DNA of 64,000 bases from positions 124,878 to 188,877 of the IMG/VR virus record IMGVR_UViG_3300025030_000039. One strand, given 5' to 3'. Below the pieces are notes generated by a model. That model was not told the origin of the DNA and did not search any database. It saw only the letters and a program-made list of their open reading frames with translations. Positions 34,936-58,620 of the stretch are shown here, one piece after another; position 1 is the stretch's first letter, and every line of letters begins with the position of its first letter. This DNA comes from a virus. The translations under genes and the position numbers were made by a program.

Positions 34936-34936
34936 A

Positions 34937-37375: not shown

Positions 37376-37400
37376 ATGTAAATATAATAATAAAGGACCT
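37376..37400 (-). promoter_or_regulatory. conserved upstream motif, instance 1 (plus strand TGTAAATATAATAATAAAGG; coding strand ...TTTATTATTATATTTAC, 18 nt before the ATG)
   Basis: One of six near-identical motifs upstream of minus-strand start codons. Confidence 0.45.
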
Positions 37401-37430
37401 AAAATAAAACTATATAAACATTTATTTATG

Positions 37431-37868
37431 TTAGACATTATTTTCTATTAATTCATCTAATTTTTTACAATAATTATCATACCAAATCTTAACATCTTCT
37501 CTATGTTTGTTTACTAATTCATTATAAGCCTCTCTGCAATCATATTCACTCTTAAATAATTTAAGATCATATTCTGTTCTATGATTAAATGTTAATTGTT
37601 TACTAACTATTTTCCCTCTTTTACCAATTGCATTTAAATTTGAATTTTGACGTAATGCATGAAAATTATTAATAGATTTAAATCTAGCAAGATTAGTTTG
37701 CCAACTATCATTTTTAATTTTTATAATAACTTCAGTCGGTTTTATATGTGTATCTGCTGAAGATTTTTGTTGTCGTTTTGAATATTCGCAAATCCAACAA
37801 ATAAATTGACCATCAATATCGTTATTAAAAAAATCTTTAATTTCGTCAAAAGTAATTAATCCATTCAT
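37431..37868 (-). CDS. hypothetical protein (145 aa)
   Basis: ORF. Confidence 0.4.
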   Translation of the reverse strand: MNGLITFDEIKDFFNNDIDGQFICWICEYSKRQQKSSADTHIKPTEVIIKIKNDSWQTNLARFKSINNFHALRQNSNLNAIGKRGKIVSKQLTFNHRTEYDLKLFKSEYDCREAYNELVNKHREDVKIWYDNYCKKLDELIENNV

Positions 37869-37872
37869 ATTT

Positions 37873-38439
37873 TTAAATTTTATTTTTTAATCTTTTTTCT
37901 TCTCCTTTTAAAACATTTACAACTGATTCAAAATCATTAGTTCTTCTAATCTGAGTCTCTAATTTATTTTTAGCTAAGATAGTATCAACAGATAATGAGT
38001 CTGCAAGTCTTAAATAAGAATCTAACTGTTTAAATATTATAGATGGATTTTTTATAACTATGTTAGTTATATTAAAATCATATGTTTGTTTAAGTTCTTC
38101 AGATGATGATTTAATAAAATTATCAATAAAAGTTTTAAATGTTTCATCTGAAATTAAATCATTATATTTTAAGAATGATCCATAATAAATTAATCTATCA
38201 GAAAAAACTTTTTTAACTTTAATTATAGATAATGAATCTGAATCATAAGTAATATTTATGGAAATATTTTTAAATAATAATGAATCTCTAGTTACAAATC
38301 CTAAACTATCAATTAATAATGTTTTAGATTTATTTAATTCAATGTTTTTACTAGTATTATCATTCTTAAAAAAATATAAGTAAATAAGAAAAACCTGTAG
38401 AATTATAACAATAACTAATAATATTTTTATAGTTTTCAT
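37873..38439 (-). CDS. hypothetical membrane-anchored protein (188 aa)
   Basis: N-terminal transmembrane helix ILLVIVIILQVFLIYLYFF. Confidence 0.4.
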   Translation of the reverse strand: MKTIKILLVIVIILQVFLIYLYFFKNDNTSKNIELNKSKTLLIDSLGFVTRDSLLFKNISINITYDSDSLSIIKVKKVFSDRLIYYGSFLKYNDLISDETFKTFIDNFIKSSSEELKQTYDFNITNIVIKNPSIIFKQLDSYLRLADSLSVDTILAKNKLETQIRRTNDFESVVNVLKGEEKRLKNKI

Positions 38440-38709
38440 ATTTTTTCTCTTTCTAATTTTTCATTTATGGCTTCAGCAATCCAATTACCTACTTCATCTT
38501 GATATTTAGCAGCTGCATCCATATCAATATTTCCTTTTTTATCTTTAAACATATTTTGAATATGTCCCAACCTCTCATTTCAGCAAGCATCTGACTACCA
38601 CCTTTAGGCTCATTTATCCAAAAATATTGTCCACCATATTTATCATAAGTAACTTTTCCGTTAATTAAATCTTTTATTTGCATATTATCTAACAGTAATT
38701 TATTGTAAT

Positions 38710-39165
38710 TTATACTATTTCTGTTTCATGTTCTATACCATATTCATCTATGTAAAATAAATCAACGCCTTCAAATACTAAAAATGAATATTCAGTTTCT
38801 GCTTGTACACCTTCATAAAATTCATTTGCAAAATCTATATTATTTTTTCCTAGATATTCTTCTTTATCTTCATATTCAGATTCTTCAAACATTAGTATAG
38901 ATAAAAATTTACAATCATCCTCTGTTATTTGTTTAGCATCAATATGTTTTTTTATTCTATATTTTTCAAGACTTACTCCCCAATGTCCTGGAGTAGGTTG
39001 TAATTTATTCAATAATAAACAATATCGTTCTAAATAAGGATTATCTAAAGATACTATCACTTCTTTTGATGTATTACCATTAGAATCGCCAATCATATAA
39101 TTATATACTAACATATAATATGGATCATTTTTCTTTTTCTTATTTTTCTCTTTAATTTTTATCAT
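38710..39165 (-). CDS. hypothetical acidic protein (151 aa)
   Basis: ORF. Confidence 0.4.
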   Translation of the reverse strand: MIKIKEKNKKKKNDPYYMLVYNYMIGDSNGNTSKEVIVSLDNPYLERYCLLLNKLQPTPGHWGVSLEKYRIKKHIDAKQITEDDCKFLSILMFEESEYEDKEEYLGKNNIDFANEFYEGVQAETEYSFLVFEGVDLFYIDEYGIEHETEIV

Positions 39166-39166
39166 T

Positions 39167-39484
39167 TTATTTTGTGTTTTTTAATAGTTGTGATAATTTT
39201 ATTATTTCATTTTTAGTTTTTATAATTAGTAATTTTTTATTTTCAATTAAAGTTAAAATATCATTCTGATTATTCCATTCTTTAATTGCTGCTATTTTAC
39301 AAGCATTAATTTTTACTTTATTATCGCATTGTTTATTTTTACATTGTGCACTTGATATAAAACCATATTTATCTGCATATTCATAAATATGAATATCATC
39401 ATTTCCACATTTAATACATTTTGCTACATAATGTTCAACTATTTCTTCAGTCGATGGTATTAGTACATTTTGTTTGTATATCAT
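39167..39484 (-). CDS. hypothetical Zn-ribbon protein (105 aa)
   Basis: CIKCGN...CKNKQCDN. Confidence 0.4.
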   Translation of the reverse strand: MIYKQNVLIPSTEEIVEHYVAKCIKCGNDDIHIYEYADKYGFISSAQCKNKQCDNKVKINACKIAAIKEWNNQNDILTLIENKKLLIIKTKNEIIKLSQLLKNTK

Positions 39485-39497
39485 AACTCATTTTTAT

Positions 39498-40394
39498 TTA
39501 ATTTTCACTAATTTCTATAAATATTTCGTTAACTTGTGGAAAATCTTCTTTAATATGTAATTTGATGTGATCAACTGTATCTTCTATTTTGTATCCTCTT
39601 GTAAAATCTCCCACACTTATAGATAATAATAATAAATATTGATTTTTTCCCATAGTCATCGTTTTAATTCTATTAATACGATGAACCTCAACATTATCGT
39701 TAATTATTTCTTTAATTTTATTTCTATCTTCTCTTGGCATACTTTCACCTATTATTAGTTTTCTGAGTTCATTAGTTAGTGAAATAGCAACATAAGCTAA
39801 AATAAGTCCAATTATAATACTACCAATTGCATCAAATATAGGATTAAACAATGAAAGAATTGTACATATTAAAGCAACTATTAAACCAGTCAATGCTGCA
39901 GCATCTTCTAATAATATAACAATTAAATTTATATCTATTGATTTTTTAATTTCTTTAAATAAATTTCCCTTTGAAGTTTTTCTAAATTGATTATATGCAA
40001 CTAAAAAAGTTTTAGATTCAATAATAACTGAAATTCCTAATACTCCAATAGCCCACCAAAAAAATTCAATTGGTTGTGGATTAGCTAATTTATGAAATCC
40101 TTCATATACTGAAAATGTTGCTCCTACGAAGAATAACAAAATAGCTACCATAAAGGCCCAAAAATATTCTTCTCGACCATAACCAAAGGGATGTTGTTCA
40201 TCACTAGGCTTTTTTGATCTTTTACTTCCTATAAGAAGAAATATTTGATTTAAACAATCTGCAGTTGAATGTATTGCTTCGGCCAACATTGATGCACTTT
40301 TTGTAAAAAATGCTGCTACAAATTTGCATATTGCTATTGTTGTATTTCCGACAAGTGCAGTAATTACTGCTTTTGTTGAATTATCATGACTCAT
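39498..40394 (-). CDS. cation diffusion facilitator (CDF) family transporter
   Basis: HSTADCLNQIFLLIG...DEQHPFGYGREEYF signature; six predicted transmembrane segments plus a C-terminal cytoplasmic domain. Confidence 0.7.
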   Translation of the reverse strand: MSHDNSTKAVITALVGNTTIAICKFVAAFFTKSASMLAEAIHSTADCLNQIFLLIGSKRSKKPSDEQHPFGYGREEYFWAFMVAILLFFVGATFSVYEGFHKLANPQPIEFFWWAIGVLGISVIIESKTFLVAYNQFRKTSKGNLFKEIKKSIDINLIVILLEDAAALTGLIVALICTILSLFNPIFDAIGSIIIGLILAYVAISLTNELRKLIIGESMPREDRNKIKEIINDNVEVHRINRIKTMTMGKNQYLLLLSISVGDFTRGYKIEDTVDHIKLHIKEDFPQVNEIFIEISEN

Positions 40395-40404
40395 TTTTAT
40401 TTAA

Positions 40405-41754: not shown

Positions 41755-42077
41755 CCAACAGTAACTCCAACTACTTCTACCATTAAATGAGTACTTGGTT
41801 TAACTGAAAAACATTTTTCAAAAAGTAATGCTACAAATATTCCAGCAAAAGCTCCAATAATATCTGAAAATGTATTTCCAATCATACTAGATAATAATGG
41901 ATTATCTTCAGGCTTAAGAAAAGGATTAATATCCATTCCTATAGCTAAAAATCCATTATCTATTATTCCAAAAACTGTCATAAATAACATTCCTGCTATA
42001 AAACTTACAACTTTATCTTTTGTAGTTAATCTTATTGTTTTTCTAGTCATATTTTTAAAATAAATAAATGAGCACAA
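41715..42077 (-). CDS. small integral membrane protein (120 aa)
   Basis: About three hydrophobic helices. Confidence 0.4.
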   Translation of the reverse strand: MCSFIYFKNMTRKTIRLTTKDKVVSFIAGMLFMTVFGIIDNGFLAIGMDINPFLKPEDNPLLSSMIGNTFSDIIGAFAGIFVALLFEKCFSVKPSTHLMVEVVGVTVGCIIPILIYYFLF

Positions 42078-42094
42078 ATATTTGTGCTCATTTA
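42067..42094 (-). terminator. perfect hairpin AAATGAGCACAAA-TAT-TTTGTGCTCATTT followed by a T-rich run on the minus strand
   Basis: 13-bp stem; lies 3' of the gene 42103-42474. Confidence 0.55.
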
Positions 42095-42102
42095 AATTTT
42101 GT

Positions 42103-42474
42103 TTATTTTCTCAATTTTTCAAGATCTTCAATTGACATCTCTTCAAGCTTTTTATCTTTTTTACTTGCAATTAAAGCATCAATTTTTTGATTATGAATTT
42201 TAGCTTCTGCTGCATCTCTTGATTCATCTGATTCTTTCTTTTTAGAAAGATAAACGTCTTTTAAAATATCAAAACGAAGTTGATTTTCAACATCTACAAC
42301 TTTTGCATCTTCTAAGAATGATAATTCATCATCATCAGTCTTCTTTAATACTTTTTTAACTGCTTTAATTGAATTTGATAATTCAGTCTGATTTAAATGC
42401 CATAATTGCTCAACACTTAATAGACCTTTACTTGTTTGGAATCTTAATCCTAATTTACTCGCTTGTTTGTACAT
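42103..42474 (-). CDS. hypothetical protein (123 aa)
   Basis: ORF. Confidence 0.4.
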   Translation of the reverse strand: MYKQASKLGLRFQTSKGLLSVEQLWHLNQTELSNSIKAVKKVLKKTDDDELSFLEDAKVVDVENQLRFDILKDVYLSKKKESDESRDAAEAKIHNQKIDALIASKKDKKLEEMSIEDLEKLRK

Positions 42475-42493
42475 AAAATTAATTATTAATCGT

Positions 42494-44617
42494 TTAAAAC
42501 TTTATTTTAATTACTCTTTTAAATGAGCCTTGTAATCTTACAATAAGTTCATCTCGAACTGTTGCATTAAAACCTAAGCCTGATAATTGTTTTTCAGATG
42601 GTTCAATCATTGTTGTATTTCCTAATACTTCAAGAACTTTTCGATGATTTGCTAATTCTGGAATTAAATTTTCTGTATGAAAACTTCTAATAGATGTAGG
42701 AGATTTACAACCATCTAACATGAAAAAGAAATGTTTATTTCCAACTTCATTACCGTCCCAGTGATTAGGACTTAAACATACTAAATTTACTTTATGGAAT
42801 TCATTTGTTTGTAAACCATATAGTTCTTTAGATACAGAATTACCTTCTATTACAGGTAATAAATGTTTAATAGTAAAATATCCATTCTTTAAAGTTACTT
42901 CGGCAATTTGAATTTTTCCTTGAGCGTTTCCTTTATACTCATAAATATAAGATTCTCCTTCAAATTCTATTTCAGCTTTAAATCCTGTATTCTTTCCGGC
43001 ATTAAAATTATGATTAAAGAATTTATAAACACCGTCTTTCATTTTAAATTTATCTATCCATGTAATATTTTCAACTCCTAATGTACGTGGACTGATCATA
43101 TCGATATCTAATTCACCAGACATGGTGGTTAAACCTCCACGTCCTTTTCTATATGAACCATAATATATTTCAGTTCCATTTGGTTCAATAGCATGAACAT
43201 CAAAATCACAAATACTCCTGCCATCTTCATTCCAAGATATAGAACATCTTAATACGGCATCAATTCGACCTCCAGCATCTTTAACAGCTTCTTTAATCAT
43301 AGATTTACCGGCTAAATTTCCATTAAATGTCCAACTATAATTATTTGACCATTTAAATATTGGTTTACTTTCTTTAATATTTGCTGTTGTAAGTGAAGAC
43401 ATATTTCCATTATGATCATTTGATAAATATGCTTCAACTGAAGTACAATTTGGAAGTATATCTTGCATAAATTTATCAATAGATACTTCTTCAATTCCAT
43501 CAAATTCACTTCTTTTATGTCTTGTGGAAGTTGATTTAACAGTATCAAATATAGATACTGCTTTTAATTTTCCATCTCCAACATTAATATGTTTGATTTC
43601 AGAAGCTTTAATATCATCGATATTAGCAAATCTTCTATCAAAAGATTCAGTATATCCATTTTCTTCAACAAAAATACGAGCTTCTTCAATTTGTTTTTTT
43701 GTAATTGGAGCCGTTGTTTTCATGTAATTAACTGGATCAACTCTTTTATTCCATGCTTGACATGCGTCATTTAATTCTTTGCCTTCTGCTAATTCGGAAC
43801 ATAATACACCAATAAGCTCATTTTTAAATTTAGCAAATGGTAATTTATAAGAAGCTGTCCAACACCAATTATTTCTTTTCCCTGAAGGTAATTCATCATA
43901 TTGTTTTTTCAATGGAATGAATTGTTCAATTTTGTATAAATGTGTTTGTCCATCAAGCAAGCTTCCTTGAATGATAAGATCTTTTACCAAATTTAATGTA
44001 TCAATGGAAATTTCTTCCATAGCACGTTGAAATACGTTTTTTGAATCTCGATATTCACCCATAATAGATTCAATAGATTTACTACCCATATCAACAAACT
44101 GCTTAGGTAAAAATAAATGAAAATGATTAAAGGTTCTTATTTCATTTTGTTTAACGACACCATATTTTTCTGCTTCTTCTTTGGTATATCGTTTTACGTT
44201 TTTATCAATACCTAATTTAAATAAAGTATTAGTTTTAGATATACTTTCGTAAGGAAGAGAATTTAATTCATTAAATGTTTCAAAAAATACTTCTGCAACA
44301 TTAGCATTTTTAAGTGCATCTGATATTGCTTTAGCTGATGCAGAATATTCTTCTGAAGCTTCAACATCAAACATTGTAATAATATTATAATCTTCATCGA
44401 TAGATACAATATTACCGTATCTACGAATAAAATTATTACATAAAGTACAATTATGATAAGTACTTTGAGGGTCTCTAAAAATTGGATTATGTTCTTTTGG
44501 GAATGCATTAATATATAAATCCCATACTTGTTGTCCAGATAAAGAACTTCTAAACAACTTTCCAGTAGAACACATTTTTTCAAATTGCTCCTGTATTAAT
44601 TTTTTAAATTCTATCAT
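42494..44617 (-). CDS. large hypothetical protein (707 aa)
   Basis: Long ORF with protein-like composition; no motif recognised. Confidence 0.5.
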   Translation of the reverse strand: MIEFKKLIQEQFEKMCSTGKLFRSSLSGQQVWDLYINAFPKEHNPIFRDPQSTYHNCTLCNNFIRRYGNIVSIDEDYNIITMFDVEASEEYSASAKAISDALKNANVAEVFFETFNELNSLPYESISKTNTLFKLGIDKNVKRYTKEEAEKYGVVKQNEIRTFNHFHLFLPKQFVDMGSKSIESIMGEYRDSKNVFQRAMEEISIDTLNLVKDLIIQGSLLDGQTHLYKIEQFIPLKKQYDELPSGKRNNWCWTASYKLPFAKFKNELIGVLCSELAEGKELNDACQAWNKRVDPVNYMKTTAPITKKQIEEARIFVEENGYTESFDRRFANIDDIKASEIKHINVGDGKLKAVSIFDTVKSTSTRHKRSEFDGIEEVSIDKFMQDILPNCTSVEAYLSNDHNGNMSSLTTANIKESKPIFKWSNNYSWTFNGNLAGKSMIKEAVKDAGGRIDAVLRCSISWNEDGRSICDFDVHAIEPNGTEIYYGSYRKGRGGLTTMSGELDIDMISPRTLGVENITWIDKFKMKDGVYKFFNHNFNAGKNTGFKAEIEFEGESYIYEYKGNAQGKIQIAEVTLKNGYFTIKHLLPVIEGNSVSKELYGLQTNEFHKVNLVCLSPNHWDGNEVGNKHFFFMLDGCKSPTSIRSFHTENLIPELANHRKVLEVLGNTTMIEPSEKQLSGLGFNATVRDELIVRLQGSFKRVIKIKF

Positions 44618-44641: not shown

Positions 44642-44670
44642 GGTAAATATAATAAAAAAGTTTTAATTAT
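44642..44670 (-). promoter_or_regulatory. conserved upstream motif, instance 2 (GGTAAATATAATAAAAAAGTTTTAATTAT), about 23 nt before the ATG at 44617
   Basis: Motif family. Confidence 0.45.
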
Positions 44671-44969
44671 TATAATTTTTCGAAACATTTTAAAATAATA
44701 GAACATTTTTCATATTCTTCTATTTCAATATAATAGTTCTTTAGTTCTTCCAAAATTATATTCCAATTATTTCTATGACATTTTATTTGCATAAGTTTAG
44801 ATCCTTTTAATTCTAAATAAAAAATAGGCATTAATAAAATATCATTATTTATTCCATAGATAATAGCGTTATATAAATTATTATATAACAAATCTTTATT
44901 AGCAGTTAATTGGCCAAAAGCTTCATTAACTGTATTGCAGTTCATAAGTTTAAAAGTAGATAATTGCAT
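44670..44969 (-). CDS. hypothetical protein (99 aa)
   Basis: ORF. Confidence 0.35.
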   Translation of the reverse strand: MQLSTFKLMNCNTVNEAFGQLTANKDLLYNNLYNAIIYGINNDILLMPIFYLELKGSKLMQIKCHRNNWNIILEELKNYYIEIEEYEKCSIILKCFEKL

Positions 44970-45812: not shown

Positions 45813-46080
45813 CGAAATAACATAAAAAATTGTTTCTTACATATACATACTGTATAAAACCTTCTAAATCACTAGCTATAATAAATATAGATTCTTCTAT
45901 TTCTCCGTTTGATTTTTCTTCGGCAACATTCATAAACCATTTATCAGAATTTTCCCACCACAAATGAACAGTATTTCTACCTTTATCTTTTTTGAGATAT
46001 CCTTTTTTAGATTTATTGCCTATATTATTTATGAATTCTCGTTGAGTTCCATTAAACTTTTTCAGATTCGTTAATTTCAT
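45802..46080 (-). CDS. hypothetical protein (92 aa)
   Basis: ORF. Confidence 0.3.
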
Positions 46081-46402
46081 CTTTTATTTCAGTTAGTTCG
46101 TTAATAGGTATAACTTGATTAATAAATTTACTTATTTCTTCTATATGATTTTTAACTTCTTGAATATCAACAAAAGTATATTTACCACTTTTAATATGAC
46201 TTTGAATTTCAGATATATTCATTCCTTCTTTTTTCATTTTTCTGAATTCTAATATATCCTTTTTCTTTTGTGATGTAACATCTTTTTCTTTAAATGCAAT
46301 ATCTTTTTCTAATGCACTAGCTATTCTTTCTAATGCTGTTACTGCTCTAGGGAAATCTGTGTTAAAAAACTTTTCTCCCATTCGTGTTTTGTGAAATTCC
46401 AT
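46052..46402 (-). CDS. hypothetical protein (116 aa)
   Basis: ORF. Confidence 0.35.
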   Translation of the reverse strand: MEFHKTRMGEKFFNTDFPRAVTALERIASALEKDIAFKEKDVTSQKKKDILEFRKMKKEGMNISEIQSHIKSGKYTFVDIQEVKNHIEEISKFINQVIPINELTEIKDEINESEKV

Positions 46403-46415: not shown

Positions 46416-46447
46416 AAAATAAATATAATAATAATGTTTTTAAAAAA
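46416..46447. promoter_or_regulatory. conserved upstream motif, instance 3 (AAATAAATATAATAATAATGTTTTTAAAAAATT), in a divergent intergenic region
   Basis: Motif family; 10 nt from the minus-strand ATG at 46402. Confidence 0.4.
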
Positions 46448-46546
46448 TTAATTTTTATATATATCACGGCGAAACTATTTCTGTTTTTCTAATATAAAAT
46501 TTACAGCTTAAGAGTTGGAGTAATGTATATTTAAAGCGGATCTGTT

Positions 46547-48611: not shown

Positions 48612-49358
48612 TTATTCAATATCATTTAAGTTATATCCTGAAAATAAACTAATATATTGAAGAACTGTTGTTCCATTTGCATCGCCAGATCCAGCTTCAG
48701 TTCCTTTTGAATCAAAAAAACAAATAGCGTCATCAGGCTTAAGATGAAATGCCATTAATATTCCGGATTCCGAAATATATTTTCCATTAATAGTTGTATT
48801 ATTATATTCATCAATATATTTTTTATAAGCCTTTCTATTTTCTCTTAATAATTGTTTGAATGCACCTATTTGTAATTCTTTATTTTTTAAAAAATCTTCT
48901 TTTGATACTGTTATACCAATTAATTTTAATGTAGATGGAGAAAATTGAAAATAACCCATCATTGTACCATTAGTAATAGTCCATTTATTACCAGATTCCA
49001 TTTTACCTACATCTAATATAAATTGATCAAAAGTTTTTAATTTTACTTTTTTGATATCAATATAAACAGTATCTTTAATTTGAACTTTTTGAACACTAAT
49101 AATAGGTTCAACTAATTTTGTGCTTAAAACATAAAGTAATATTACAACAGTTAAAATATAAAATACTTTAAGTAAAAATTTTTTATAACCATATTTAACA
49201 AATCTTTTAAATTTACCACTAACAATATCTTTTAATAAAGGATATGCAGCCTGAAGTATAAAATTGAATTGTTCTATTTTATTATCTAAATATCTGTTTG
49301 TTGGATAATTGCTATCCTCGGTTTTCTTAAGAGTAGGAATTTTAGTAAATATATTCAT
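48612..49358 (-). CDS. membrane-anchored lytic transglycosylase-like protein (SLT domain)
   Basis: Transmembrane helix FLLKVFYILTVVILLYVL followed by ESGNKWTITNGTMMGYFQFSPSTLKLIG, which resembles the catalytic E-S...GLMQ...TA block of SLT enzymes. Confidence 0.45.
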   Translation of the reverse strand: MNIFTKIPTLKKTEDSNYPTNRYLDNKIEQFNFILQAAYPLLKDIVSGKFKRFVKYGYKKFLLKVFYILTVVILLYVLSTKLVEPIISVQKVQIKDTVYIDIKKVKLKTFDQFILDVGKMESGNKWTITNGTMMGYFQFSPSTLKLIGITVSKEDFLKNKELQIGAFKQLLRENRKAYKKYIDEYNNTTINGKYISESGILMAFHLKPDDAICFFDSKGTEAGSGDANGTTVLQYISLFSGYNLNDIE

Positions 49359-49373: not shown

Positions 49374-49402
49374 AGTAAATATAATAATAAAGTTTTTATA
49401 AA
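49374..49402 (-). promoter_or_regulatory. conserved upstream motif, instance 4 (AGTAAATATAATAATAAAGTTTTTATA), about 17 nt before the ATG at 49358
   Basis: Motif family. Confidence 0.45.
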
Positions 49403-49410
49403 AATAATAT

Positions 49411-51329: not shown

Positions 51330-51709
51330 ATAAATTTGTACATATAGTTAATACCTTCCCAATAGTGTTCATATCCTTCTTTAACATAAATATCAATAAG
51401 TGTTTGTTGTCCTATTTCAGAATATGGATCAGGATTTAAAATTATCGTATCTGCCCCCTTTTCTTTCATTATATTTTGAGCTTTATTTATCAAAAGTTTA
51501 AAAATTCCTTTTCTTCTAAATTCAGGATTAACATATAAATTACAAATTATCCATGTATATTTTGTAAGATCATTAAATCCTAAATCTAAATTAGATATTA
51601 TAGTAGAATCAATAAGTCCAATTCTATTATTTAAATAGTTAGCTTTTAAAAAAATTCCTGTATTTGTGTTATATACATATTCTATTTTAACATCTAAAAC
51701 ATTAAACAT
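51326..51709 (-). CDS. GNAT-family N-acetyltransferase
   Basis: Motif A NPEFRRKGIFKLLINKAQNIMKEKGADTIILN. Confidence 0.6.
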   Translation of the reverse strand: MFNVLDVKIEYVYNTNTGIFLKANYLNNRIGLIDSTIISNLDLGFNDLTKYTWIICNLYVNPEFRRKGIFKLLINKAQNIMKEKGADTIILNPDPYSEIGQQTLIDIYVKEGYEHYWEGINYMYKFI

Positions 51710-51736
51710 ATTTAAAAGATTTATACGGTTATTTAT

Positions 51737-51803
51737 TTTAATAGCTAAATTTTAATAATATGGTACAATATAAAAATTAACCGCTAATACCAAGATTCAC
51801 AGT
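51737..51803. repeat. ~70-bp intergenic element, copy 2 (see 30721-30790)
   Basis: TTTTAATAGCT...AATAATATGGTACAATATA...CAAGATTCACAG. Confidence 0.5.
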
Positions 51804-51820
51804 TTATAATAAATAAGGAC

Positions 51821-52030
51821 TTAAGTGTTTAAAAATACCATGAAATTATATATTTTTTTATCGTCATAAAAGGGATCATTTTCAGTATTAGTTATTATGT
51901 CATATATCTCTGGTATCATATCATGTAATGCTAACATATAACTTTGACCTAAACGTAATTCAGTATGAGCATATTCTATAGTTTTTTCTGTTAATTCTAT
52001 CCACTCTGGATCTGTTAATTTTCCTTTCAT
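51821..52030 (-). CDS. hypothetical protein (69 aa)
   Basis: ORF. Confidence 0.3.
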   Translation of the reverse strand: MKGKLTDPEWIELTEKTIEYAHTELRLGQSYMLALHDMIPEIYDIITNTENDPFYDDKKIYNFMVFLNT

Positions 52031-52034
52031 TTAA

Positions 52035-52859: not shown

Positions 52860-52877
52860 AATTAAGGTGTTTAAAGA

Positions 52878-53648: not shown

Positions 53649-53658
53649 AATATAAATT

Positions 53659-53934
53659 CTATTTTTTAATTTCTTCTAAATCATTTTTATCAGCATAAAA
53701 TTTAACGAATGGATCCATTTTAAATGATTTTACAAAATCAAATTGGTCTTTTTTAGGAATTTCATCTAAAATATTTCTTATTTGAGAAGTATCATTAATT
53801 ATAAAACCACCAGTCATAAATTTTTTTCCATCTTTTTCAATTAGAATTAAATTATTTGTTTTATCTATTGCATTTGATATTAATATTGCTTCTTCGTAGC
53901 CGTTTGTTGATGGAGTTATATGTAAAATTTTCAT
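53659..53934 (-). CDS. hypothetical protein (91 aa)
   Basis: ORF. Confidence 0.35.
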   Translation of the reverse strand: MKILHITPSTNGYEEAILISNAIDKTNNLILIEKDGKKFMTGGFIINDTSQIRNILDEIPKKDQFDFVKSFKMDPFVKFYADKNDLEEIKK

Positions 53935-53955
53935 ACGAATATATTTAAAGTTAAT

Positions 53956-53990
53956 TTGTAAAAGTGTCCTAAATTAGGACACTTTTACAA
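53956..53990. promoter_or_regulatory. perfect 15-bp-arm palindrome TTGTAAAAGTGTCCT-AAATT-AGGACACTTTTACAA between the OmpA-fusion gene and the downstream ABC genes; operator or terminator
   Basis: Seen directly in the sequence. Confidence 0.45.
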
Positions 53991-54003
53991 ATTCTTATTT
54001 ATA

Positions 54004-55818
54004 TTATTTTAAAAGTGTTATTTCACTTCTTCTATTTTTAGCTTTACCATTAGAAGTATTGTTATCTGCTATAGGTTCATTTTGACCTTTACCATCTACT
54101 AATTGAAAACGTGATACTGGAATACCTTTGTTCATTAAATAATTTTGTACTGCATTAGCTCTTCCTTTTGATAAAGTTAAGTTAGCATCTGCATTACCAG
54201 TATTATCAGTATGACCAATAATTTTAACTTTAGTATTTTCAGCTTGTATTAGTAAATTATAGATAGTTTCTAAATCTTTAGTTGACCCGGATATTGTTGA
54301 AGAACCTGTTTCAAAATTAATTGACCAATTACCACTAGCTAATACTTCAGTTTTAGTTTCTGTATAATCTGCTTTCTGAGTAACACCTGCATCAATATCA
54401 TTAATAGATTTTAAGAAATATAAATTAACAGCATCATCATAAGGTACTACACCTGTCTTAATCATATCATTAAAACCACAAGGATTAAGTTCTACTAAAT
54501 AAGATGAAATTTGATTATATACTGATTTATATCTATTTACTCCATCAGTAATACCATAGTATTGCATTGCATCTGCATAGTTAAAAACTTTAGAGCCACC
54601 AATATTAAAACTAACTCCTCCTTTTTCGCCCTTTTGACCTTTAAATAAATCATACCAATATTTTGGTGTTTCTAAATTATATGTTTTACATACAGCTTGT
54701 GATGCAAATACTGCCCACTGATCATATTGTTTAATTTGATTACATGCTATATAAGAATTTTTAAGTATGCCTGTAACAATTTTCTCATGTTGTAAAGCCC
54801 ATTCTTTGATAACTACAATAGTTGTTGCCATTTGATTATTAAATTCTTTTGTAGAAACAACATCTGTAAATCCAGTAAGAGCATCAAATGCCATTTTATC
54901 TCCAGGTGTCCATGTTGTAGCTCCATCAATTTTTTTATCAATTGTTTTACCAGTCAATTTTCCATTTTTAACTTCTTTTAAAGGAACTGTAAAACCACTT
55001 AATTGAGATTTAATTAATTCTTTAACAGATGCAATATAATCATCATTTTCAGAAGGAAAGAAATTTACAGCATCAGCATCATAAGTTTTAGGATCCGGAT
55101 TTACAGGTAATTTATTAGCAAATGCATAATTTAAAGCTACTACCCAATCTCCATCTCCAATTACGGATGATATTAAAGATCCAATCATTAATTTAGGATT
55201 ATCTTTCCATTCTTTTGGTCCAATTAATTTATCTTCTCCATTAGACATACCGATAGCACCAATTGCTTGTACATGATATTTTCCTTTACCGAATTTATCA
55301 TCTAATGCTTGTTGTGTTGTTGAAATATAAAATGGAACGCCATCACCCATAATAGATACCGCAAAAGCTCCTTTATCAGATTCTGGATATTCTTTTCCTT
55401 TATCATATTCTTCAACAAATTTAATATGCATATTTCTTAATTCTGAAACCCAATCTTGTCTTATAATTTCTAAATTTATACCAGATATTTCCATTAAAGA
55501 ACCTTTAGTAGGTCTAGGTCCACCATTTGCACTAATCATTCCACTGTTACAATTCCAAGCATATTCTGCGATACGAATTAATGGTTGACTAACTACTGCA
55601 GTTGAAGGCTCTTCTGTTGGAACTGCAAGCATTGTACCTGCTGTAATATTATTTATATTATCAGTGTTTAGTTCTAAACCTGCCAGCTGTTTAGATTCAT
55701 CAACTCTTAATCCAGGAGCAAACCAATATACTCCACCTAAAATTACGACTAAAATAATTGCGACAATAATAGCTTCAAAGCCGGTTGTCAAGTTTTTTGT
55801 TCTTAAAATTTTTCCCAT
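54004..55818 (-). CDS. membrane-anchored periplasmic solute-binding-like protein fused to a C-terminal OmpA-family peptidoglycan-binding domain
   Basis: N-terminal transmembrane helix. C-terminus IIGHTDNTGNADANLTLSKGRANAVQNYL...RRSEI carries the OmpA_C signature. Sits upstream of the ABC ATPase and permease. Confidence 0.6.
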   Translation of the reverse strand: MGKILRTKNLTTGFEAIIVAIILVVILGGVYWFAPGLRVDESKQLAGLELNTDNINNITAGTMLAVPTEEPSTAVVSQPLIRIAEYAWNCNSGMISANGGPRPTKGSLMEISGINLEIIRQDWVSELRNMHIKFVEEYDKGKEYPESDKGAFAVSIMGDGVPFYISTTQQALDDKFGKGKYHVQAIGAIGMSNGEDKLIGPKEWKDNPKLMIGSLISSVIGDGDWVVALNYAFANKLPVNPDPKTYDADAVNFFPSENDDYIASVKELIKSQLSGFTVPLKEVKNGKLTGKTIDKKIDGATTWTPGDKMAFDALTGFTDVVSTKEFNNQMATTIVVIKEWALQHEKIVTGILKNSYIACNQIKQYDQWAVFASQAVCKTYNLETPKYWYDLFKGQKGEKGGVSFNIGGSKVFNYADAMQYYGITDGVNRYKSVYNQISSYLVELNPCGFNDMIKTGVVPYDDAVNLYFLKSINDIDAGVTQKADYTETKTEVLASGNWSINFETGSSTISGSTKDLETIYNLLIQAENTKVKIIGHTDNTGNADANLTLSKGRANAVQNYLMNKGIPVSRFQLVDGKGQNEPIADNNTSNGKAKNRRSEITLLK

Positions 55819-55851
55819 TGTTAATAGAATTTAAAATTAATAAATAAAAGT

Positions 55852-56958
55852 TTAAAATATATCATTAAATCCACCGCTTTTTAATTTATCTTGGTGTGTC
55901 AATTGATATTCAGGATTACTGTATTGTTTAGCATCAGGTAACTCATAACTACCAGTTTTGATATCATTAGCTAAAACATCTAAGTTTGCATATAAAGTAT
56001 CGCTATCTCCATTTAATGCATATTGTGCAGTTAATGAATCAATATCATTAAGATTTCCGGATGTTATAGCAATATCTTGTGCAATAGTAGAAGTAACTAC
56101 ATCTAATGCATATTCAAGTTCCCATGTTTTAGTAAACATCATAGCAGATTTAGCACTTTCAGTAGCTTGTCGGGATTTTTGTGCAAAGTCATAATCTTTT
56201 TTCAAAATTTCAATAGTTGCATCAAAATCAGATACTTTAATATCCATTGTTGTTTCAACCATTATAAGTTTATGACTAAATTTTTTCATAATATTAGCTC
56301 TTGTTCCATATTTTTGAATAAATTCAGTTTCTTGTGTAAGCTTATTACTTATACGAGCACTATCAGATAATAATTTACGAAATTCTGAATCAGTATTAAC
56401 ATATTCATCAGTTCCTTTTGCTGCAGGACCTCCGGTTTTTACCATATCATCTAATTGATCTTTTAATTTTTGTGCTTTTGCTTGTATAGATACAACATCT
56501 GTTTGTAATTTTTTAGCTGTCTTCTCGGACTTATCAGCTTCTATTTCCATTTCATTTTTTAAATTCAAAATCTTTCCTTTTGCTTGTTGAAATTTTTGTT
56601 TATTTTGATACATTAAATCTCTTTGATGATATAATTCTGCAAATGGATCGTGTTTTATAATTGCTTTATGCAAATTTCGAGTTAATACTCTTATTCCTTT
56701 AAGAATAACTGGCATTGCAATTATAAGTCCAAGTAATAATATTCCTGTTGTTGCTACAGCAAGAAATTGACCGATTGCTTGAAAAACTACAGGCAATACA
56801 TATACCCATAAACCATAACCAACAGCTCCTGCTGCTGCTAATTTAATAAAGAAATTTAATCCTTTTTCTCCTTTTCTCCAACTTGTTATATTTTTAGATA
56901 TATCGCTATCTTCAAAATGTTTAAAAATTGGTAAACTTTTTAAATTGCTATTGTCCAT
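55852..56958 (-). CDS. membrane protein with two N-terminal transmembrane helices and a long coiled-coil domain
   Basis: Transmembrane segment LAAAGAVGYGLWVYVLPVVFQAIGQFLAVATTGILLLGLIIAMPVIL, followed by a helical Lys/Glu/Gln-rich region. Confidence 0.45.
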   Translation of the reverse strand: MDNSNLKSLPIFKHFEDSDISKNITSWRKGEKGLNFFIKLAAAGAVGYGLWVYVLPVVFQAIGQFLAVATTGILLLGLIIAMPVILKGIRVLTRNLHKAIIKHDPFAELYHQRDLMYQNKQKFQQAKGKILNLKNEMEIEADKSEKTAKKLQTDVVSIQAKAQKLKDQLDDMVKTGGPAAKGTDEYVNTDSEFRKLLSDSARISNKLTQETEFIQKYGTRANIMKKFSHKLIMVETTMDIKVSDFDATIEILKKDYDFAQKSRQATESAKSAMMFTKTWELEYALDVVTSTIAQDIAITSGNLNDIDSLTAQYALNGDSDTLYANLDVLANDIKTGSYELPDAKQYSNPEYQLTHQDKLKSGGFNDIF

Positions 56959-56962
56959 AATT

Positions 56963-57724
56963 CTATTTTAAATTGTTAATAATTCCATTTTTAACTTTAG
57001 TTATTGATCCCAATATTACATCTTTAGCGTGATCATTTGCCATTAATTTACAATCAATTTCAGTTAATTGAGTTGAATATTTAGAATCAATTTGTGATAA
57101 TAAACTTTCTTTTGACTGTATTTGATTTTTAATACTTTCTAATTGCATTTTTAAATTATCTAATTCTGCAACTAAATTTTTATTTTCATTTTCTTTTTGA
57201 TTAGTTACTTCATTTCTTTTTGTTTGACCTTTATCAACATAAGTTTTATATACTTTATTAATTTCAGTTATATAAAAATCTGATTGTGATAATAATGATT
57301 CTTTAGAAACTGTTTTATCAATTCCTTTAGCCATCATTAAAGCCATATTATAGATTTGTGGATTATCAATACCTGCACTAATAATAGATTGATAATATTC
57401 GAAAAAATCATATCCTGTCATATTTAATCCTTCAAATCCTTGCTCATACATCTTCATTACTGAATCAATATGAGGTTGACATACAGGATTAACTTCAGTT
57501 AGATTAGTATTTATAACAATTTTTTCAATATTAACAGTATTAGGAAAAGTAGTTTTTTGTTGTGTATTAGCAGTATTTGGAAAAGTAGAAGTACTTTTAT
57601 TTGGTTCAATTTTTTTAGATTGTTCCTCTACTTTATCATTAACGAAAAAAAGATCTTTAAAACCCATATTACTATTTTTAAAATTTATAATGTTGAGCAC
57701 GTTTAAACTTAAAACATTTATCAT
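56963..57724 (-). CDS. coiled-coil protein (253 aa)
   Basis: ORF with heptad-like Lys/Glu/Leu/Gln composition in its C-terminal half. Confidence 0.4.
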   Translation of the reverse strand: MINVLSLNVLNIINFKNSNMGFKDLFFVNDKVEEQSKKIEPNKSTSTFPNTANTQQKTTFPNTVNIEKIVINTNLTEVNPVCQPHIDSVMKMYEQGFEGLNMTGYDFFEYYQSIISAGIDNPQIYNMALMMAKGIDKTVSKESLLSQSDFYITEINKVYKTYVDKGQTKRNEVTNQKENENKNLVAELDNLKMQLESIKNQIQSKESLLSQIDSKYSTQLTEIDCKLMANDHAKDVILGSITKVKNGIINNLK

Positions 57725-57899
57725 CTATATCTAAATGATATTCTAATTGATCTAATGAATTTATAAAATTATTAGATATAAAAGTATTAGATAATCTTGC
57801 AATAATATAATCTTTTTTAACATTAAGAGTATAAAATTTATCGCATCCTATAAGAAAATCTAAAAATTCTTTTTCTATATGTTCTATTTTTTCAGCCAT
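57678..57899 (-). CDS. hypothetical protein (73 aa)
   Basis: ORF. Confidence 0.3.
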   Translation of the reverse strand: MAEKIEHIEKEFLDFLIGCDKFYTLNVKKDYIIARLSNTFISNNFINSLDQLEYHLDIDDKCFKFKRAQHYKF

Positions 57900-58069
57900 A
57901 ATATAAATTTAGCGATTAATATTCCAACAACAATAAATATAGCAGCAAGTATAAACATCGAAATACCTATAACAAATTTAAAGATAGTCATTCCAATTAT
58001 ATATGCGCATATAATAATAATAATTATTACTACCGAATATAAAATTAATTTTATTTTATTTTTTATCAT
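57884..58069 (-). CDS. small two-transmembrane membrane protein (61 aa), holin-like topology
   Basis: Two hydrophobic helices and a basic C-terminus KFILWLKK. Preferred over the antisense ORF 57879-58124 because the upstream motif sits at 58120-58150. Confidence 0.35.
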   Translation of the reverse strand: MIKNKIKLILYSVVIIIIIICAYIIGMTIFKFVIGISMFILAAIFIVVGILIAKFILWLKK

Positions 58070-58119
58070 CTTATCTTTTATTAATCGGTTTCTGACGTAT
58101 CCTAATTATTTTAATTATT

Positions 58120-58150
58120 GGTAAATATAATAAAAAAGTTTTTAATTAAA
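58120..58150 (-). promoter_or_regulatory. conserved upstream motif, instance 5 (GGTAAATATAATAAAAAAGTTTTTAATTAAA)
   Basis: Motif family. Confidence 0.45.
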
Positions 58151-58164
58151 ATTTAAAGTTTAAT

Positions 58165-58479
58165 TTATTTCCAGTCGGCATTTGGCTTATTAAATTCTTC
58201 ACTATAATCAGGATCGGGATGAGCTATTTGATCTTTATATTCTTCTTTTAATTTATCTTGTTGTTCTAATAAAGCATTCCAATTATACATTACACCTGAT
58301 CGTTCTTTTATACCAACTTCTGTATAATTAAAATGATCTTTAGATAAAAAATCATTATGCTTAATTTTATTAATGATAGCTTTGCCTCCAGCAAAATCGT
58401 CTTCTCCTCTATATACATAACATGCGCCTGGAACATAAATTTCTTGTCCTTCTATTGGTTCAATTTTTTTATTTTTCAT
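58165..58479 (-). CDS. hypothetical protein (104 aa)
   Basis: ORF. Confidence 0.4.
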   Translation of the reverse strand: MKNKKIEPIEGQEIYVPGACYVYRGEDDFAGGKAIINKIKHNDFLSKDHFNYTEVGIKERSGVMYNWNALLEQQDKLKEEYKDQIAHPDPDYSEEFNKPNADWK

Positions 58480-58589
58480 AATCTAATATTTCTTTTAAAT
58501 TAATTTTTATACCTTCTTTTTGACCATTTAGATGTTCGACGTATAAATTATTACTGTCTAACAGTAATTTGTTATAAATTTAATAATTA

Positions 58590-58620
58590 AAATAAATATA
58601 ATAATAAAGATTTTAATTTA
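58590..58620. promoter_or_regulatory. conserved upstream motif, instance 6 (AAATAAATATAATAATAAAGATTTTAATTTA)
   Basis: Motif family. Confidence 0.4.

What the first reader, a model, noticed from the sequence alone, without database searches (positions are those of the whole stretch)
37376..58620. Conserved ~25-nt motif immediately upstream of at least six start codons: a dedicated promoter class?
The plus-strand sequence (G)TAAATATAATAAWAAAGTTTTTAATT recurs at 37378, 44642, 46416, 49374, 58120 and 58590. Each copy lies 10-110 nt (mostly 10-25) upstream of a minus-strand ATG. On the coding strand it reads TTAAAAACTTTWTTATTATATTTAC-N(10-25)-ATG. The layout does not fit sigma70 -35/-10 spacing. 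The core TATATTTAC resembles, as far as I recall, the TATATTAC early-promoter core used by the virion RNA polymerase of phiKZ-like jumbo phages. The ~70-bp repeated element (30721-30790 and 51737-51803) contains a related TATATTATACC on the same strand. This suggests a regulon read by a dedicated RNA polymerase or sigma/transcription factor.
Basis: partly seen in the sequence, partly recalled or inferred. Interest (0 to 1): 0.6.

Follow-up and report, generated by a model that had tools for sequence, protein, structure and literature searches.

The report
Early-gene promoters of a giant phage
The repeated AT-rich motif is a real family of about 60-80 promoters that switch on the non-structural genes of a 462-kb T4-like phage of a Bacteroidota-type host, and it looks like an ordinary host-polymerase/sigma-factor promoter of the Bacteroidota kind, not a signal for a phiKZ-like phage polymerase.

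Summary
Six exact copies of TAAATATAATAA lie on the + strand (0.94 expected), all intergenic and all pointing at minus-strand genes. The window is part of uncultured phage LR756500.1 (462 kb, 24% GC). Across that genome a 36-nt matrix finds 80 sites. 71 are intergenic although only 8% of the genome is. Sites sit typically 15-32 nt before an ATG, and also before a tmRNA and tRNAs. None lies in the 182-kb T4-like structural block, whose genes carry a second motif, TGATATATAA.

The full layout is A-TTTTT-A, N9, C-TTT-W, TTAT-TATATTTA-C. This fits the Bacteroidota -33/-7 promoter (TTTG / TAnnTTTG) in geometry, except that A replaces the usually invariant G at -5. The related Prevotella megaphage Lak-A1 has the same architecture with a canonical TATCTTTG box.

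The phage has a gp23-type capsid and no detectable RNA polymerase. It encodes two diverged copies of the Bacteroidota primary sigma factor, and both genes sit behind this motif. The phiKZ reading is therefore not supported. The best reading is an early/middle promoter class read by host core polymerase with a sigma-A-type factor. Whether that factor is the host's or the phage's is unresolved. No transcription start site is mapped.

The parts
37377..37412 (-). Motif-1 promoter copy. Coding strand: TAGTTTTATTTTAGGTCCTTTA TTATTATATTTAC A. The ATG of the 164-aa ORF lies 18 nt after the C. The operon continues into the split NAD-ligase and an AAA ATPase gene.
   Evidence: Matrix score 32.4; sequence; downstream Pfam hits.
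44642..44677 (-). Motif-1 promoter copy, 26 nt before the ATG of the 707-aa phrog_1735 protein.
   Evidence: Score 28.8; PHROG hit E=3.8e-216.
46418..46453 (-). Motif-1 promoter copy (variant ...ACATTA TTATTATATTTAT), 17 nt before the ATG of the 116-aa ORF. It heads a four-gene run, 46402 down to 44670.
   Evidence: Score 23.9; ORF map.
49374..49409 (-). Motif-1 promoter copy, 17 nt before the ATG of the 248-aa ORF.
   Evidence: Score 30.6.
58120..58155 (-). Motif-1 promoter copy, 52 nt before the ATG of the 61-aa ORF (57884-58069). It heads the long minus-strand run down to about 54004.
   Evidence: Score 29.7 and an exact 26-mer match; ORFs.
58591..58626 (-). Motif-1 promoter copy, 113 nt before the ATG of the 104-aa ORF (58165-58479). 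It lies about 35 nt inside the left end of a repeated IS-like element and faces outward.
   Evidence: Score 31.9; three-copy alignment of the element's end, 89% mean column identity.
36866..37360 (-). First gene behind copy 37378 (164 aa, no family hit).
42494..44617 (-). First gene behind copy 44643 (707 aa, phrog_1735, function unknown).
46052..46402 (-). First gene behind copy 46419 (116 aa).
48612..49358 (-). First gene behind copy 49375 (248 aa).
57884..58069 (-). First ORF behind copy 58121 (61 aa; mechanical ORF call only).
58165..58479 (-). First gene behind copy 58592 (104 aa).

Best explanation
The motif is the early/middle-gene promoter class of a 462-kb T4-like ('group 2') megaphage that infects a Bacteroidota-type host.

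Proposed mechanism (inferred). Host core RNA polymerase carrying a sigma-A(Bfr)-type factor binds two elements. The first is the T-tract A-TTTTT-A, which lies 19 nt upstream of the box, at the -33 position. The second is the box TATATTTA (positions -12 to -5), which corresponds to the Bacteroidota -7 element TAnnTTTG. The flanking conserved bases (C-TTT-W-TTAT upstream, C just downstream) lie within the footprint of a sigma-70-type holoenzyme.

Transcription would start about 3-5 nt after the conserved C. This gives leaders of roughly 10-30 nt and a few leaderless mRNAs.

These promoters drive small early ORFs, tRNAs, the tmRNA, ligase and ATPase genes, and both phage sigma genes. Structural genes instead use a T4-late-like box, TGATATATAA.

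Both phage sigma genes themselves sit behind this motif. The two phage sigma-A paralogues may take over or reinforce later.

Shown: the motif's reality, strand and position bias, genome distribution, architecture, the gene content of the phage, and the same architecture in Lak-A1.

Inferred: promoter function, start-site position, temporal class, and the identity of the sigma factor.
For: The window is identical to LR756500.1 apart from one insertion.

Genome-wide there are 80 sites above the best score in a simulated genome. 71 are intergenic against 8.2% intergenic DNA. 51 lie within 60 nt upstream of a same-strand start. Orientation flips with gene strand.

Sites also lie directly before a tmRNA (34 nt), tRNA-Asn (26 nt) and an insert-containing tRNA-like gene (3 nt). 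This argues for a transcription signal, not a translation signal.

There is no credible site between 177 and 359 kb. That block holds the Gp23 capsid, Gp20 portal, sheath, terminase and baseplate genes. Those genes carry ATATATAA boxes: 64 sense, 23 antisense, 5.9 expected.

The published -7 element is T-12 A-11 T-8 T-7 T-6 G-5, with 4-5 nt to the start site (PMC6847099). The box TATATTTA matches 5 of those 6 positions. G occupies the last position in 7% of sites. The T-tract is at a fixed 19-nt distance.

Four ATGs lie only 1-5 nt after the C, followed by a gap to 12 nt. This is as expected if the start site is about 3-5 nt after the C.

Host type: there is no Shine-Dalgarno use (3.2% against 5.8% in random windows), and A is enriched at -3 and at -11 to -13, as in Flavobacterium (PMC6847099). 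The nearest named homologues of the phage sigma are RpoD/SigA of Prevotella and Bacteroidales, at 35-40% identity and the same length. The nearest named phage relatives are the Prevotella Lak megaphages.

Lak-A1's most repeated 12-mer is TGTATCTTTGTA. This is TG plus a canonical TAnnTTTG box, with ATTTTTTTA at the same distance upstream. The two consensus strings align column by column.

A related phage family with smaller contigs (119-176 kb, about 35% GC, capsid 50% identical) has several copies of CTTTTTTATTATATTTACA with the same T-tract before its genes.

Sigma1 has its own motif copy 46 nt upstream. Sigma2 is the fourth gene behind a 33-bit copy.
Against: No transcription start site or expression data exist. 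Promoter function and timing are inferred.

G-5 is described as nearly invariant in Flavobacterium promoters, but here A holds that position in 91% of sites. The canonical TAHHTTTG is not enriched upstream of phage genes (26 sense, 36 antisense, 22.7 expected). The host sigma may therefore read these sites poorly. That would favour a phage sigma.

The -33 position is a T-run without the G of TTTG.

An alternative register is possible: -10 = TATTAT with a start at the A after the C. It is supported by the C/A pyrimidine-purine step and by TG at -15/-14 in one sub-family.

The host is unknown, and so is its promoter consensus.

Several large proteins (1801, 1501, 700 aa and others) have no family hit. 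One protein of 500 aa or more (1231 aa) was not scanned against either library. A very divergent phage polymerase is therefore not strictly excluded.
Confidence: 0.6

Rival explanations
1. Orthogonal phage-sigma promoters. One of the two phage-encoded sigma-A paralogues, not the host sigma, is the specific reader. The A-5/C-4 variant of the box and the T-run at -33 would be the specificity determinants that separate phage promoters from host promoters.
For: There are two sigma-70-family genes with regions 2 and 4. Their promoter-contacting segments differ from the host type. Sigma1 has FITCAVSWIKQCI against FISYAVWWIRQSI, and LTEVMIRKIMRD against LTRERVRQIKEK in region 4.2. Sigma2 also diverges in 4.2. 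The box departs from the host consensus at the 'nearly invariant' G-5 in 91% of sites (PMC6847099). The canonical host box is not enriched upstream of phage genes.
Against: Both sigma genes lie behind motif-1 promoters. A phage sigma cannot start the programme unless it is carried in the virion or the host sigma also reads the sites. Lak-A1 has the same architecture with a fully canonical host-type box and also encodes a sigma-A-like gene. The architecture alone therefore does not require a special sigma. No close orthologue of sigma2 was found in IMG/VR to test co-variation.
Confidence: 0.28
2. Host sigma plus a phage activator, in the manner of T4 MotA middle promoters. The box is read by the host sigma. 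The conserved AAAC-TTTW segment just upstream is the binding site of a phage-encoded activator that replaces a weak -33 contact.
For: Strong extra conservation lies between the box and the T-tract: C at -5 of the matrix in 74% of sites, followed by TTT. Host promoter descriptions do not include this. Two sub-families differ in exactly this segment: CCTTTG in the 435-462 kb and 1-8 kb region, AAACTTTW elsewhere.
Against: No MotA/AsiA-like protein was looked for or found. The same segment is AT-rich in Flavobacterium promoters ('AT-rich motif centred at -18', PMC6847099), so it may be part of normal holoenzyme contact.
Confidence: 0.07
3. Promoters for a phage-encoded RNA polymerase: phiKZ-like virion or non-virion multisubunit enzyme, crAss-like giant polymerase, or T7-like enzyme.
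For: There is a literal resemblance, TATATT-T-AC against phiKZ TATATTAC (PMC7058600). Jumbo-phage early promoters are about 10-nt AT-rich motifs centred near -10 (PMC7598289). Several large proteins remain without any family hit.
Against: No RNA-polymerase Pfam hit was found among 43 of the 44 proteins of 500 aa or more. No RNA-polymerase PHROG hit was found among most of those that Pfam left unannotated. The catalytic DFDGD string occurs once in six frames, in a 421-aa protein with no family hit. The capsid, portal and terminase are T4-type, not phiKZ-type. The phage encodes sigma factors, which RNAP-encoding group 1 jumbo phages lack (PMC7824862). The motif has a second, fixed-distance upstream element typical of sigma-dependent promoters.
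Confidence: 0.03
4. Not a promoter. The motif is an AT-rich low-complexity coincidence, a mobile-element end, or an RNA-level or translation signal.
For: The genome is 24% GC. One window copy (58593) does belong to a repeated IS-like element's end.
Against: Shuffle statistics rule out chance. The 80 sites show strict strand and position bias. Only 3 of the 80 sites are in the IS-like element. Copies precede non-coding RNA genes. Related phages use the motif at non-orthologous positions.
Confidence: 0.02

Closest known systems
Bacteroidota primary-sigma (sigma-ABfr) promoters: -33 TTTG / -7 TAnnTTTG (Bayley 2000; refined to TAHHTTTG in F. johnsoniae, PMC6847099)
   Same: It is a two-part layout with a box TA-nn-TTT-x and an upstream T-rich element 19 nt away. 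AT-rich conservation lies around -18. Leaders are short and lack Shine-Dalgarno sequences. The phage's own sigma genes are homologues of this sigma.
   Different: The last box position is A, not the nearly invariant G, in 91% of sites. The next base, C, is conserved. The -33 element is TTTTT(A) without G. Four further bases (TTAT) before the box and C-TTT upstream are conserved far beyond the host consensus.
Promoter-like repeat of Prevotella megaphage Lak-A1 (ATTTTTTTA-N17-TG-TATCTTTG-TA). It was seen here in 150 kb of MK250015.1. I found no description of it in the held literature.
   Same: The T-tract has the same position and length, the A-rich spacer is the same, and the box is in the same place. 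The phage is a relative (capsid 39% identical, many shared proteins) and also has a sigma-A-like gene.
   Different: The Lak box is the canonical host type (TATCTTTG) preceded by TG. Here the box is TATATTTA preceded by TTAT and followed by C.
T4 temporal promoter classes (early sigma-70 promoters with extended consensus; late TATAAATA read by gp55/gp33/gp45)
   Same: The virion module is T4-like. The motif class is confined to non-structural genes. A separate short A/T box (TGATATATAA) sits 5-30 nt before structural genes.
   Different: The host type and consensus differ. The sigma genes here are full-length RpoD-like, not gp55-like. gp55 was not detected. Timing is not measured.
phiKZ-type early promoters (TATATTAC) read by a virion multisubunit RNA polymerase
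   Same: Both are AT-rich, highly conserved motifs close to the start of early operons of a jumbo phage. The strings are nearly identical, TATATT(T)AC.
   Different: There are no polymerase genes, a T4-type instead of a phiKZ-type capsid, and sigma factors are present. A fixed upstream element is also present.
Phage sigma cascades (SPO1 gp28, gp33/34; phiEco32 gp36) (from my own knowledge)
   Same: The phage encodes sigma-70-family factors and has at least two distinct promoter consensus classes.
   Different: In those systems the phage sigma gene is behind a host-type promoter of a different class. Here both sigma genes are behind the same motif.

Membership tests
phiKZ-like virion-RNAP early promoters | The genome encodes split beta/beta'-like multisubunit RNA polymerase subunits (virion and non-virion sets). 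| tested here: not met
   No RNAP Pfam hit among 43 of the 44 proteins of 500 aa or more, and no RNAP PHROG hit among most of those Pfam left unannotated. DFDGD occurs once in six frames, in a 421-aa protein with no hit. Very divergent enzymes are not strictly excluded.
phiKZ-like virion-RNAP early promoters | Group 1 jumbo-phage background: phiKZ-type capsid and no sigma factor (PMC7824862). | tested here: not met
   Gp23-type capsid, T4 portal and terminase. Two sigma-70-family genes.
phiKZ-like virion-RNAP early promoters | A conserved AT-rich motif of about 10 nt centred near -10 of mapped early transcript starts; in phiKZ, TATATTAC. | tested here: inconclusive
   The string differs by one inserted T (TATATTTAC; PMC7058600). 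No start sites are available.
Bacteroidota sigma-ABfr -33/-7 promoters | -7 element T-12 A-11 n n T-8 T-7 T-6 G-5. | tested here: inconclusive
   Five of six positions are met in over 90% of sites. The sixth is A in 91% and G in 7%. The related Lak-A1 sites meet all six.
Bacteroidota sigma-ABfr -33/-7 promoters | An upstream -33 element (TTTG) 19-21 nt before the -7 element. The literature reports it as weak or dispensable. | tested here: inconclusive
   A T5 run lies at a fixed 19-nt distance (84-92% T per position) but without the G.
Bacteroidota sigma-ABfr -33/-7 promoters | Transcription starts 4-5 nt after the -7 element. | not testable with these tools
   Indirect evidence only. ATGs lie at 1-5 nt after the C in four cases, then none until 12 nt. 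A tRNA-like 5' end lies 3 nt after the C.
Bacteroidota sigma-ABfr -33/-7 promoters | The host is a member of Bacteroidota. | tested here: inconclusive
   No Shine-Dalgarno use, and A at -3 and at -11 to -13 (PMC6847099). Sigma homologues are closest to Prevotella/Bacteroidales RpoD. The nearest named phage relatives are Prevotella Lak phages. There is no direct host link. The one genome-contig scan, with a mobile-element gene, was uninformative.
Group 2 jumbo phages (T4-like, sigma-encoding; PMC7824862) | Gp23-type capsid, no RNAP, phage-encoded sigma factor(s). | tested here: met
   A gp33 orthologue was not searched for. gp55 was not detected.
Phage early-class promoters (T4-early-like) | Present before non-structural or early-type genes and absent from late structural operons. 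| tested here: met
   No credible site in 177-359 kb. Structural genes carry ATATATAA instead. Actual timing was not measured.
Phage-sigma-dependent middle/late promoters (SPO1-like cascade) | The phage sigma gene is expressed from a different, earlier promoter class than the one it reads. | tested here: not met
   Both sigma genes lie behind motif-1 copies.

The most novel reading that the evidence does not exclude
The phage has copied the host's primary sigma factor twice and retuned it. Region 2.3/2.4 and 4.2 residues are changed. One paralogue would read a private version of the Bacteroidota -7 box (TATATTTA-C instead of TAnnTTT-G) that the host sigma reads poorly. This would give the phage an orthogonal regulon of about 80 promoters. 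Even the phage's own IS-like elements carry an outward-facing copy, so that insertions do not silence downstream genes.
Probability: 0.25. Interest if true: 0.55.

Novelty: new member of a known kind. Interest (0 to 1): 0.3.

Why it matters
The result gives an uncultivated 462-kb phage a readable transcription map. There are about 60-80 early/middle promoters and a separate late class, TGATATATAA. This helps to define operons, start codons and temporal classes without culture.

The same two-part architecture is shared with the Prevotella Lak megaphages and with a related family of phage contigs of 119-176 kb. The one systematic difference, A for G at -5, is a concrete and testable candidate for how sigma-A paralogues carried by megaphages could redirect host polymerase.

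For synthetic biology, such sites are candidate strong promoters for AT-rich Bacteroidota. Beyond that, it is an expected kind of feature.

Tried and rejected
- **E. coli-type promoter scan.** A -35/-10 scan of 42-60 kb found 137 sites against 148 in shuffles, so it was uninformative.
- **Rfam.** The whole window gave no family.
- **Orthologous positions.** I tested 73 IMG/VR loci that encode the 707-aa window protein. The motif is absent there; those loci carry a different hairpin-like upstream element.
- **Exact-pattern scans.** Scans of IMG/VR and of metagenome contigs gave mostly single, chance-level matches. None of the returned loci shares DNA similarity with the phage. A looser pattern revealed the related family that shares the motif.
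- **Host identification.** The single genome-contig scan, using the IS-like element's 321-aa gene, gave 33-52% hits scattered over unrelated phyla.
- **T4 gp55.** phmmer and tblastn found no hit. gp44 was found, which serves as a positive control.
- **Sigma2 relatives.** No close relative was found in IMG/VR.
- **Literature.** Searches for the literal motif and for LR756500 found nothing relevant.
- **The 84-nt conserved promoter region** of another phage group had no match in GenBank phages.
- **Downstream TATAAT-like consensus as the real -10.** I considered the weak ATATAAT consensus after the C. I rejected it because ATGs and a tRNA-like 5' end lie only 1-5 nt after the C.
- **The 70-bp repeat as a family member.** Rejected: it has two copies only and no matrix score.

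Full report
**1. Observation**

The 12-mer TAAATATAATAA occurs six times in the window, at 37379, 44644, 46420, 49376, 58122 and 58593. All copies are on the + strand. Dinucleotide-preserving shuffles give a mean of 0.94, and none of 100 reach six. The 17-mer TAAATATAATAAWAAAG with up to 1 mismatch gives the same six sites against 0.16 expected.

All six sites lie between ORFs and read in the sense of the minus-strand genes. On the coding strand they read ...AAACTTTW TTATTATATTTAC/T. The next ATG follows 17-26 nt later in four cases, and 52 and 113 nt later in the other two.

**2. Where the window comes from**

Megablast shows that the window is 100% identical to LR756500.1, an unannotated 462,018-bp 'uncultured phage' record. 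Window position 1 corresponds to record position 322381. The only difference is a 1.7-kb insertion in the record (an HTH gene plus a TnpB-like gene) at window position about 44875.

I fetched the whole record. I called 693 ORFs with a simple greedy caller. This gave 92% coding density with the standard genetic code.

**3. Genome-wide behaviour**

The exact core TTATTATATTTA occurs 56 times in the genome, and almost every copy precedes an ATG in the sense orientation. I refined a 36-nt matrix iteratively. It finds 80 sites above the best score in a Markov-simulated genome of the same size.

- 71 of the 80 sites are intergenic, although only 8.2% of the genome is intergenic.
- 51 sites lie within 60 nt upstream of a same-strand start.
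- Of the 63 sites scoring 22 bits or more, 58 are co-oriented with the next gene and only one lies inside a called ORF.
- Orientation follows gene strand. Sites are on the + strand at 1-8 kb and 389-461 kb, and on the - strand at 20-177 kb and 359-421 kb.
- Copies also precede the phage tmRNA (34 nt), tRNA-Asn (26 nt) and a tRNA-like gene with a roughly 150-nt insert (3 nt). The signal therefore acts on transcription, not translation.

The motif is functional.

**4. Architecture**

Information content is concentrated in three blocks:
- A-TTTTT-A at matrix positions -21 to -15;
- C-TTT-(W/G) at -5 to -1;
- TTATTATATTTA followed by C (54%) or T (28%).

There are two regional flavours. CCTTTG TTATTATATTTAT occurs in the 435-462 kb and 1-8 kb block of small + strand ORFs. 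AAACTTTW TTATTATATTTAC occurs elsewhere, including in the window.

**5. What kind of phage this is**

Pfam and PHROGs identify a Gp23-type major capsid protein, Gp20 portal, T4-type large terminase, tail sheath, prohead protease and baseplate wedge. No RNA-polymerase family is hit. I scanned 43 of the 44 proteins of 500 aa or more against Pfam, and most of those without a Pfam hit against PHROGs as well. One protein of 1231 aa was not scanned against either library.

The catalytic string DFDGD occurs once in six frames, in a 421-aa protein with no family hit.

Two sigma-70-family genes are present, at record 440925-441758 and 75544-76380. Both have regions 2 and 4 and both fall in phrog_351. 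This is the 'group 2' jumbo-phage pattern of Iyer et al. (PMC7824862): gp23-type capsid, no RNAP, own sigma factors. That group includes the Bacteroidetes Lak megaphages. phiKZ-type group 1 phages have polymerases and no sigma factor.

The phiKZ string TATATTAC is correctly recalled (PMC7058600), but the phiKZ mechanism is not supported.

**6. Host type**

Shine-Dalgarno cores are depleted before start codons: 3.2% against 5.8% in random windows. A is enriched at -3 and at -11 to -13. This is the pattern described for Flavobacterium johnsoniae, where A-3, A-6, A-12 and A-13 promote initiation and SD is absent (PMC6847099).

The closest homologues of sigma1 that carry a source name are the roughly 286-aa primary sigma factors of Prevotella, Bacteroidales and Bacteroidetes, at 35-40% identity. 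In the alignment both phage sigmas keep the overall sigma-ABfr layout. They differ in the promoter-contacting segments of regions 2.3/2.4 and 4.2.

At the DNA level, a related phage family matches LR756500.1 best and then the Prevotella Lak phages. A 150-kb sample of Lak-A1 shares 35 proteins with this phage, including a sigma-A-like gene.

**7. Fit to the Bacteroidota promoter**

The published consensus is -33 TTTG and -7 TAnnTTTG. T-12, A-11, T-8, T-7, T-6 and G-5 are nearly invariant, with 4-5 nt to the start site and AT-rich tracts further upstream (PMC6847099).

Matrix positions 4-11 read TATATTTA, which matches five of the six positions. The sixth is A in 91% of sites and G in 7%. The T5 run lies exactly 19 nt upstream of the box, at the -33 position.

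The predicted start, 3-5 nt after the conserved C, agrees with two observations. The ATG lies 1, 3, 4 or 5 nt after the C in four cases (candidate leaderless mRNAs), with no further ATG until 12 nt. A tRNA-like 5' end lies 3 nt after a C.

The canonical TAHHTTTG itself is not enriched upstream of phage genes (26 sense, 36 antisense, 22.7 expected).

**8. Independent comparator**

In Lak-A1 the most repeated 12-mer is TGTATCTTTGTA. Its copies read ATTTTTTTA-N17-TG-TATCTTTG-TA and lie before ORFs. When the two phages are aligned on the box, their consensus strings have the same T-tract position and the same A-rich spacer. The Lak box is the canonical host type.

A family of related phage contigs also carries several copies of TGACATTTTTTTATGTCAGG CTTTTTTATTATATTTACA before its genes. 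These contigs are 119-176 kb and about 35% GC, with capsid 50%, portal 58% and terminase 51% identical to this phage.

The architecture is therefore a clade trait. The exact box sequence varies between lineages. Orthologues of the window's 707-aa gene in 73 more distant phages lack the motif.

**9. Temporal class**

There is no credible copy between 177 and 359 kb, which is the structural block. That block includes the first 37 kb of the window.

Upstream regions there are instead enriched for (T)G-ATATATAA-WAAA: 64 sense, 23 antisense, 5.9 expected. The box sits 5-30 nt before the ATGs of the capsid, protease, sheath and other structural genes. It resembles the T4 late box TATAAATA. T4 gp55 was not detectable by phmmer.

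Motif 1 thus marks early/middle genes and the second motif marks late genes. This is inferred from gene content, not from measured timing.

**10. Which sigma reads the motif**

Sigma1 has its own motif-1 copy 46 nt upstream. Sigma2 is the fourth gene behind a 33-bit copy. A programme that needs a phage sigma to express that same sigma cannot start by itself. I therefore favour reading by the host primary sigma at the onset of infection, with possible later use by the phage paralogues.

Two points keep the 'orthogonal phage sigma' model alive, at about 0.25-0.3: the A-for-G change at -5 and the altered sigma residues. A MotA-like activator acting on the AAACTTTW segment is a minor alternative.

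**11. Details inside the window**

Copy 58593 lies about 35 nt inside the left end of a repeated IS-like element. The genome holds three copies of this end, with 89% mean column identity over about 200 nt. The motif faces outward, while the element's own genes have a TGATATATAA box.

**12. Verdict**

This is a real, sizeable promoter regulon. It is a new sequence member of a known kind: sigma-dependent phage early promoters with Bacteroidota -33/-7 geometry. It is not evidence for a phage polymerase.

Interest is modest. The most interesting open point is whether the G-to-A change in the box is matched to the phage's own sigma-A paralogues.

Noticed in passing
window 44875-44882 (record LR756500.1 367255-368950): The GenBank record carries a 1.7-kb insertion (small HTH gene plus a TnpB-like gene) that the window lacks. 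Seven window bases (AAATTAT) are replaced, so it is not a clean insertion. The window therefore comes from a variant of the deposited genome.
   Followed up: partly
window ~58560-60400 (+ strand); also record 367.2 kb and 430.0 kb: This is an IS-like element whose left end is repeated three times in the genome (89% mean column identity over ~200 nt). Each copy has an outward-facing motif-1 promoter and an inward TGATATATAA box before a small HTH gene. The cargo gene in the window copy (321 aa) has 33-52% relatives scattered over Beggiatoa-like bacteria, archaea and Bacillus.
   Followed up: partly
window 33745-36857 (- strand): The NAD-dependent DNA ligase is split into an adenylation-domain ORF (36009-36857) and an OB/zinc-finger ORF (33745-34935). 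A DUF7487/TnsA-like endonuclease gene (34937-35950) lies between them and has its own TGATATATAA box at 35972. At least ten further DUF7487 genes occur among the large proteins of the genome. The clamp-loader gp44 homologue is also in two pieces (record 208-211 kb).
   Followed up: partly
window 16329, 30357, 35972, 58663(+) and about 60 places in the record: A second promoter-like class, (T)G-ATATATAA-WAAA, lies 5-30 nt before ATGs. It is enriched 11-fold in the sense orientation and marks the T4-like structural genes. It is a likely late promoter, analogous to T4 TATAAATA.
   Followed up: partly
window 30690-30800 and 51708-51803: This is a two-copy repeat (about 80% identical over 65 nt) immediately upstream of two ATGs, with no other copy in the 462-kb genome. 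Its function is unknown and it has no Rfam match.
   Followed up: partly
record LR756500.1 110652-110912 (L004 10652-10912), outside the window: A tRNA-like gene is interrupted by a roughly 150-nt insert. Its acceptor halves GGTTGTA...TACAATC pair, but ARAGORN and Rfam do not call it. It starts 3 nt after a motif-1 copy and is followed by a tRNA with a CUA (amber-suppressor) anticodon. The phage also has 25 tRNAs and a tmRNA (tag GNNAEMRMAA).
   Followed up: partly
L012-L043, ~20-60 nt upstream of the match start; window 58530-58575: Orthologues of the 707-aa phrog_1735 gene in many IMG/VR phages are preceded by a conserved hairpin-like element (for example TCTGATTACGAAAATAGTAGTGTCAGA). A similar TTACTGTTAGACAGTAATAATTTA follows window motif copy 58593. 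It could be a regulatory RNA or an operator.
   Followed up: no
L477-L479 (Prevotella phage Lak-A1, MK250015.1): The most repeated 12-mer is TGTATCTTTGTA. This is TG plus the canonical Bacteroidota -7 box, with ATTTTTTTA 17 nt upstream, and it lies before ORFs. It looks like a promoter class of the Lak megaphages. I did not find it described in the held literature.
   Followed up: partly
window 53953-53993 and 42065-42094: There are long perfect palindromes with 19-bp and 13-bp stems between minus-strand genes. They look like terminators, and the second is bidirectional.
   Followed up: no
window 6596 and 12304 (- strand): Two neighbouring paralogous genes (401 and 392 aa) share an internal stretch ...CAAACAA ATATATAA ATAACAAAATAATGA..AAGATACAGCGATGGAGTTA. 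This is a late-box-like sequence inside the called ORFs, so the ORF starts may be miscalled or an internal promoter may exist.
   Followed up: no
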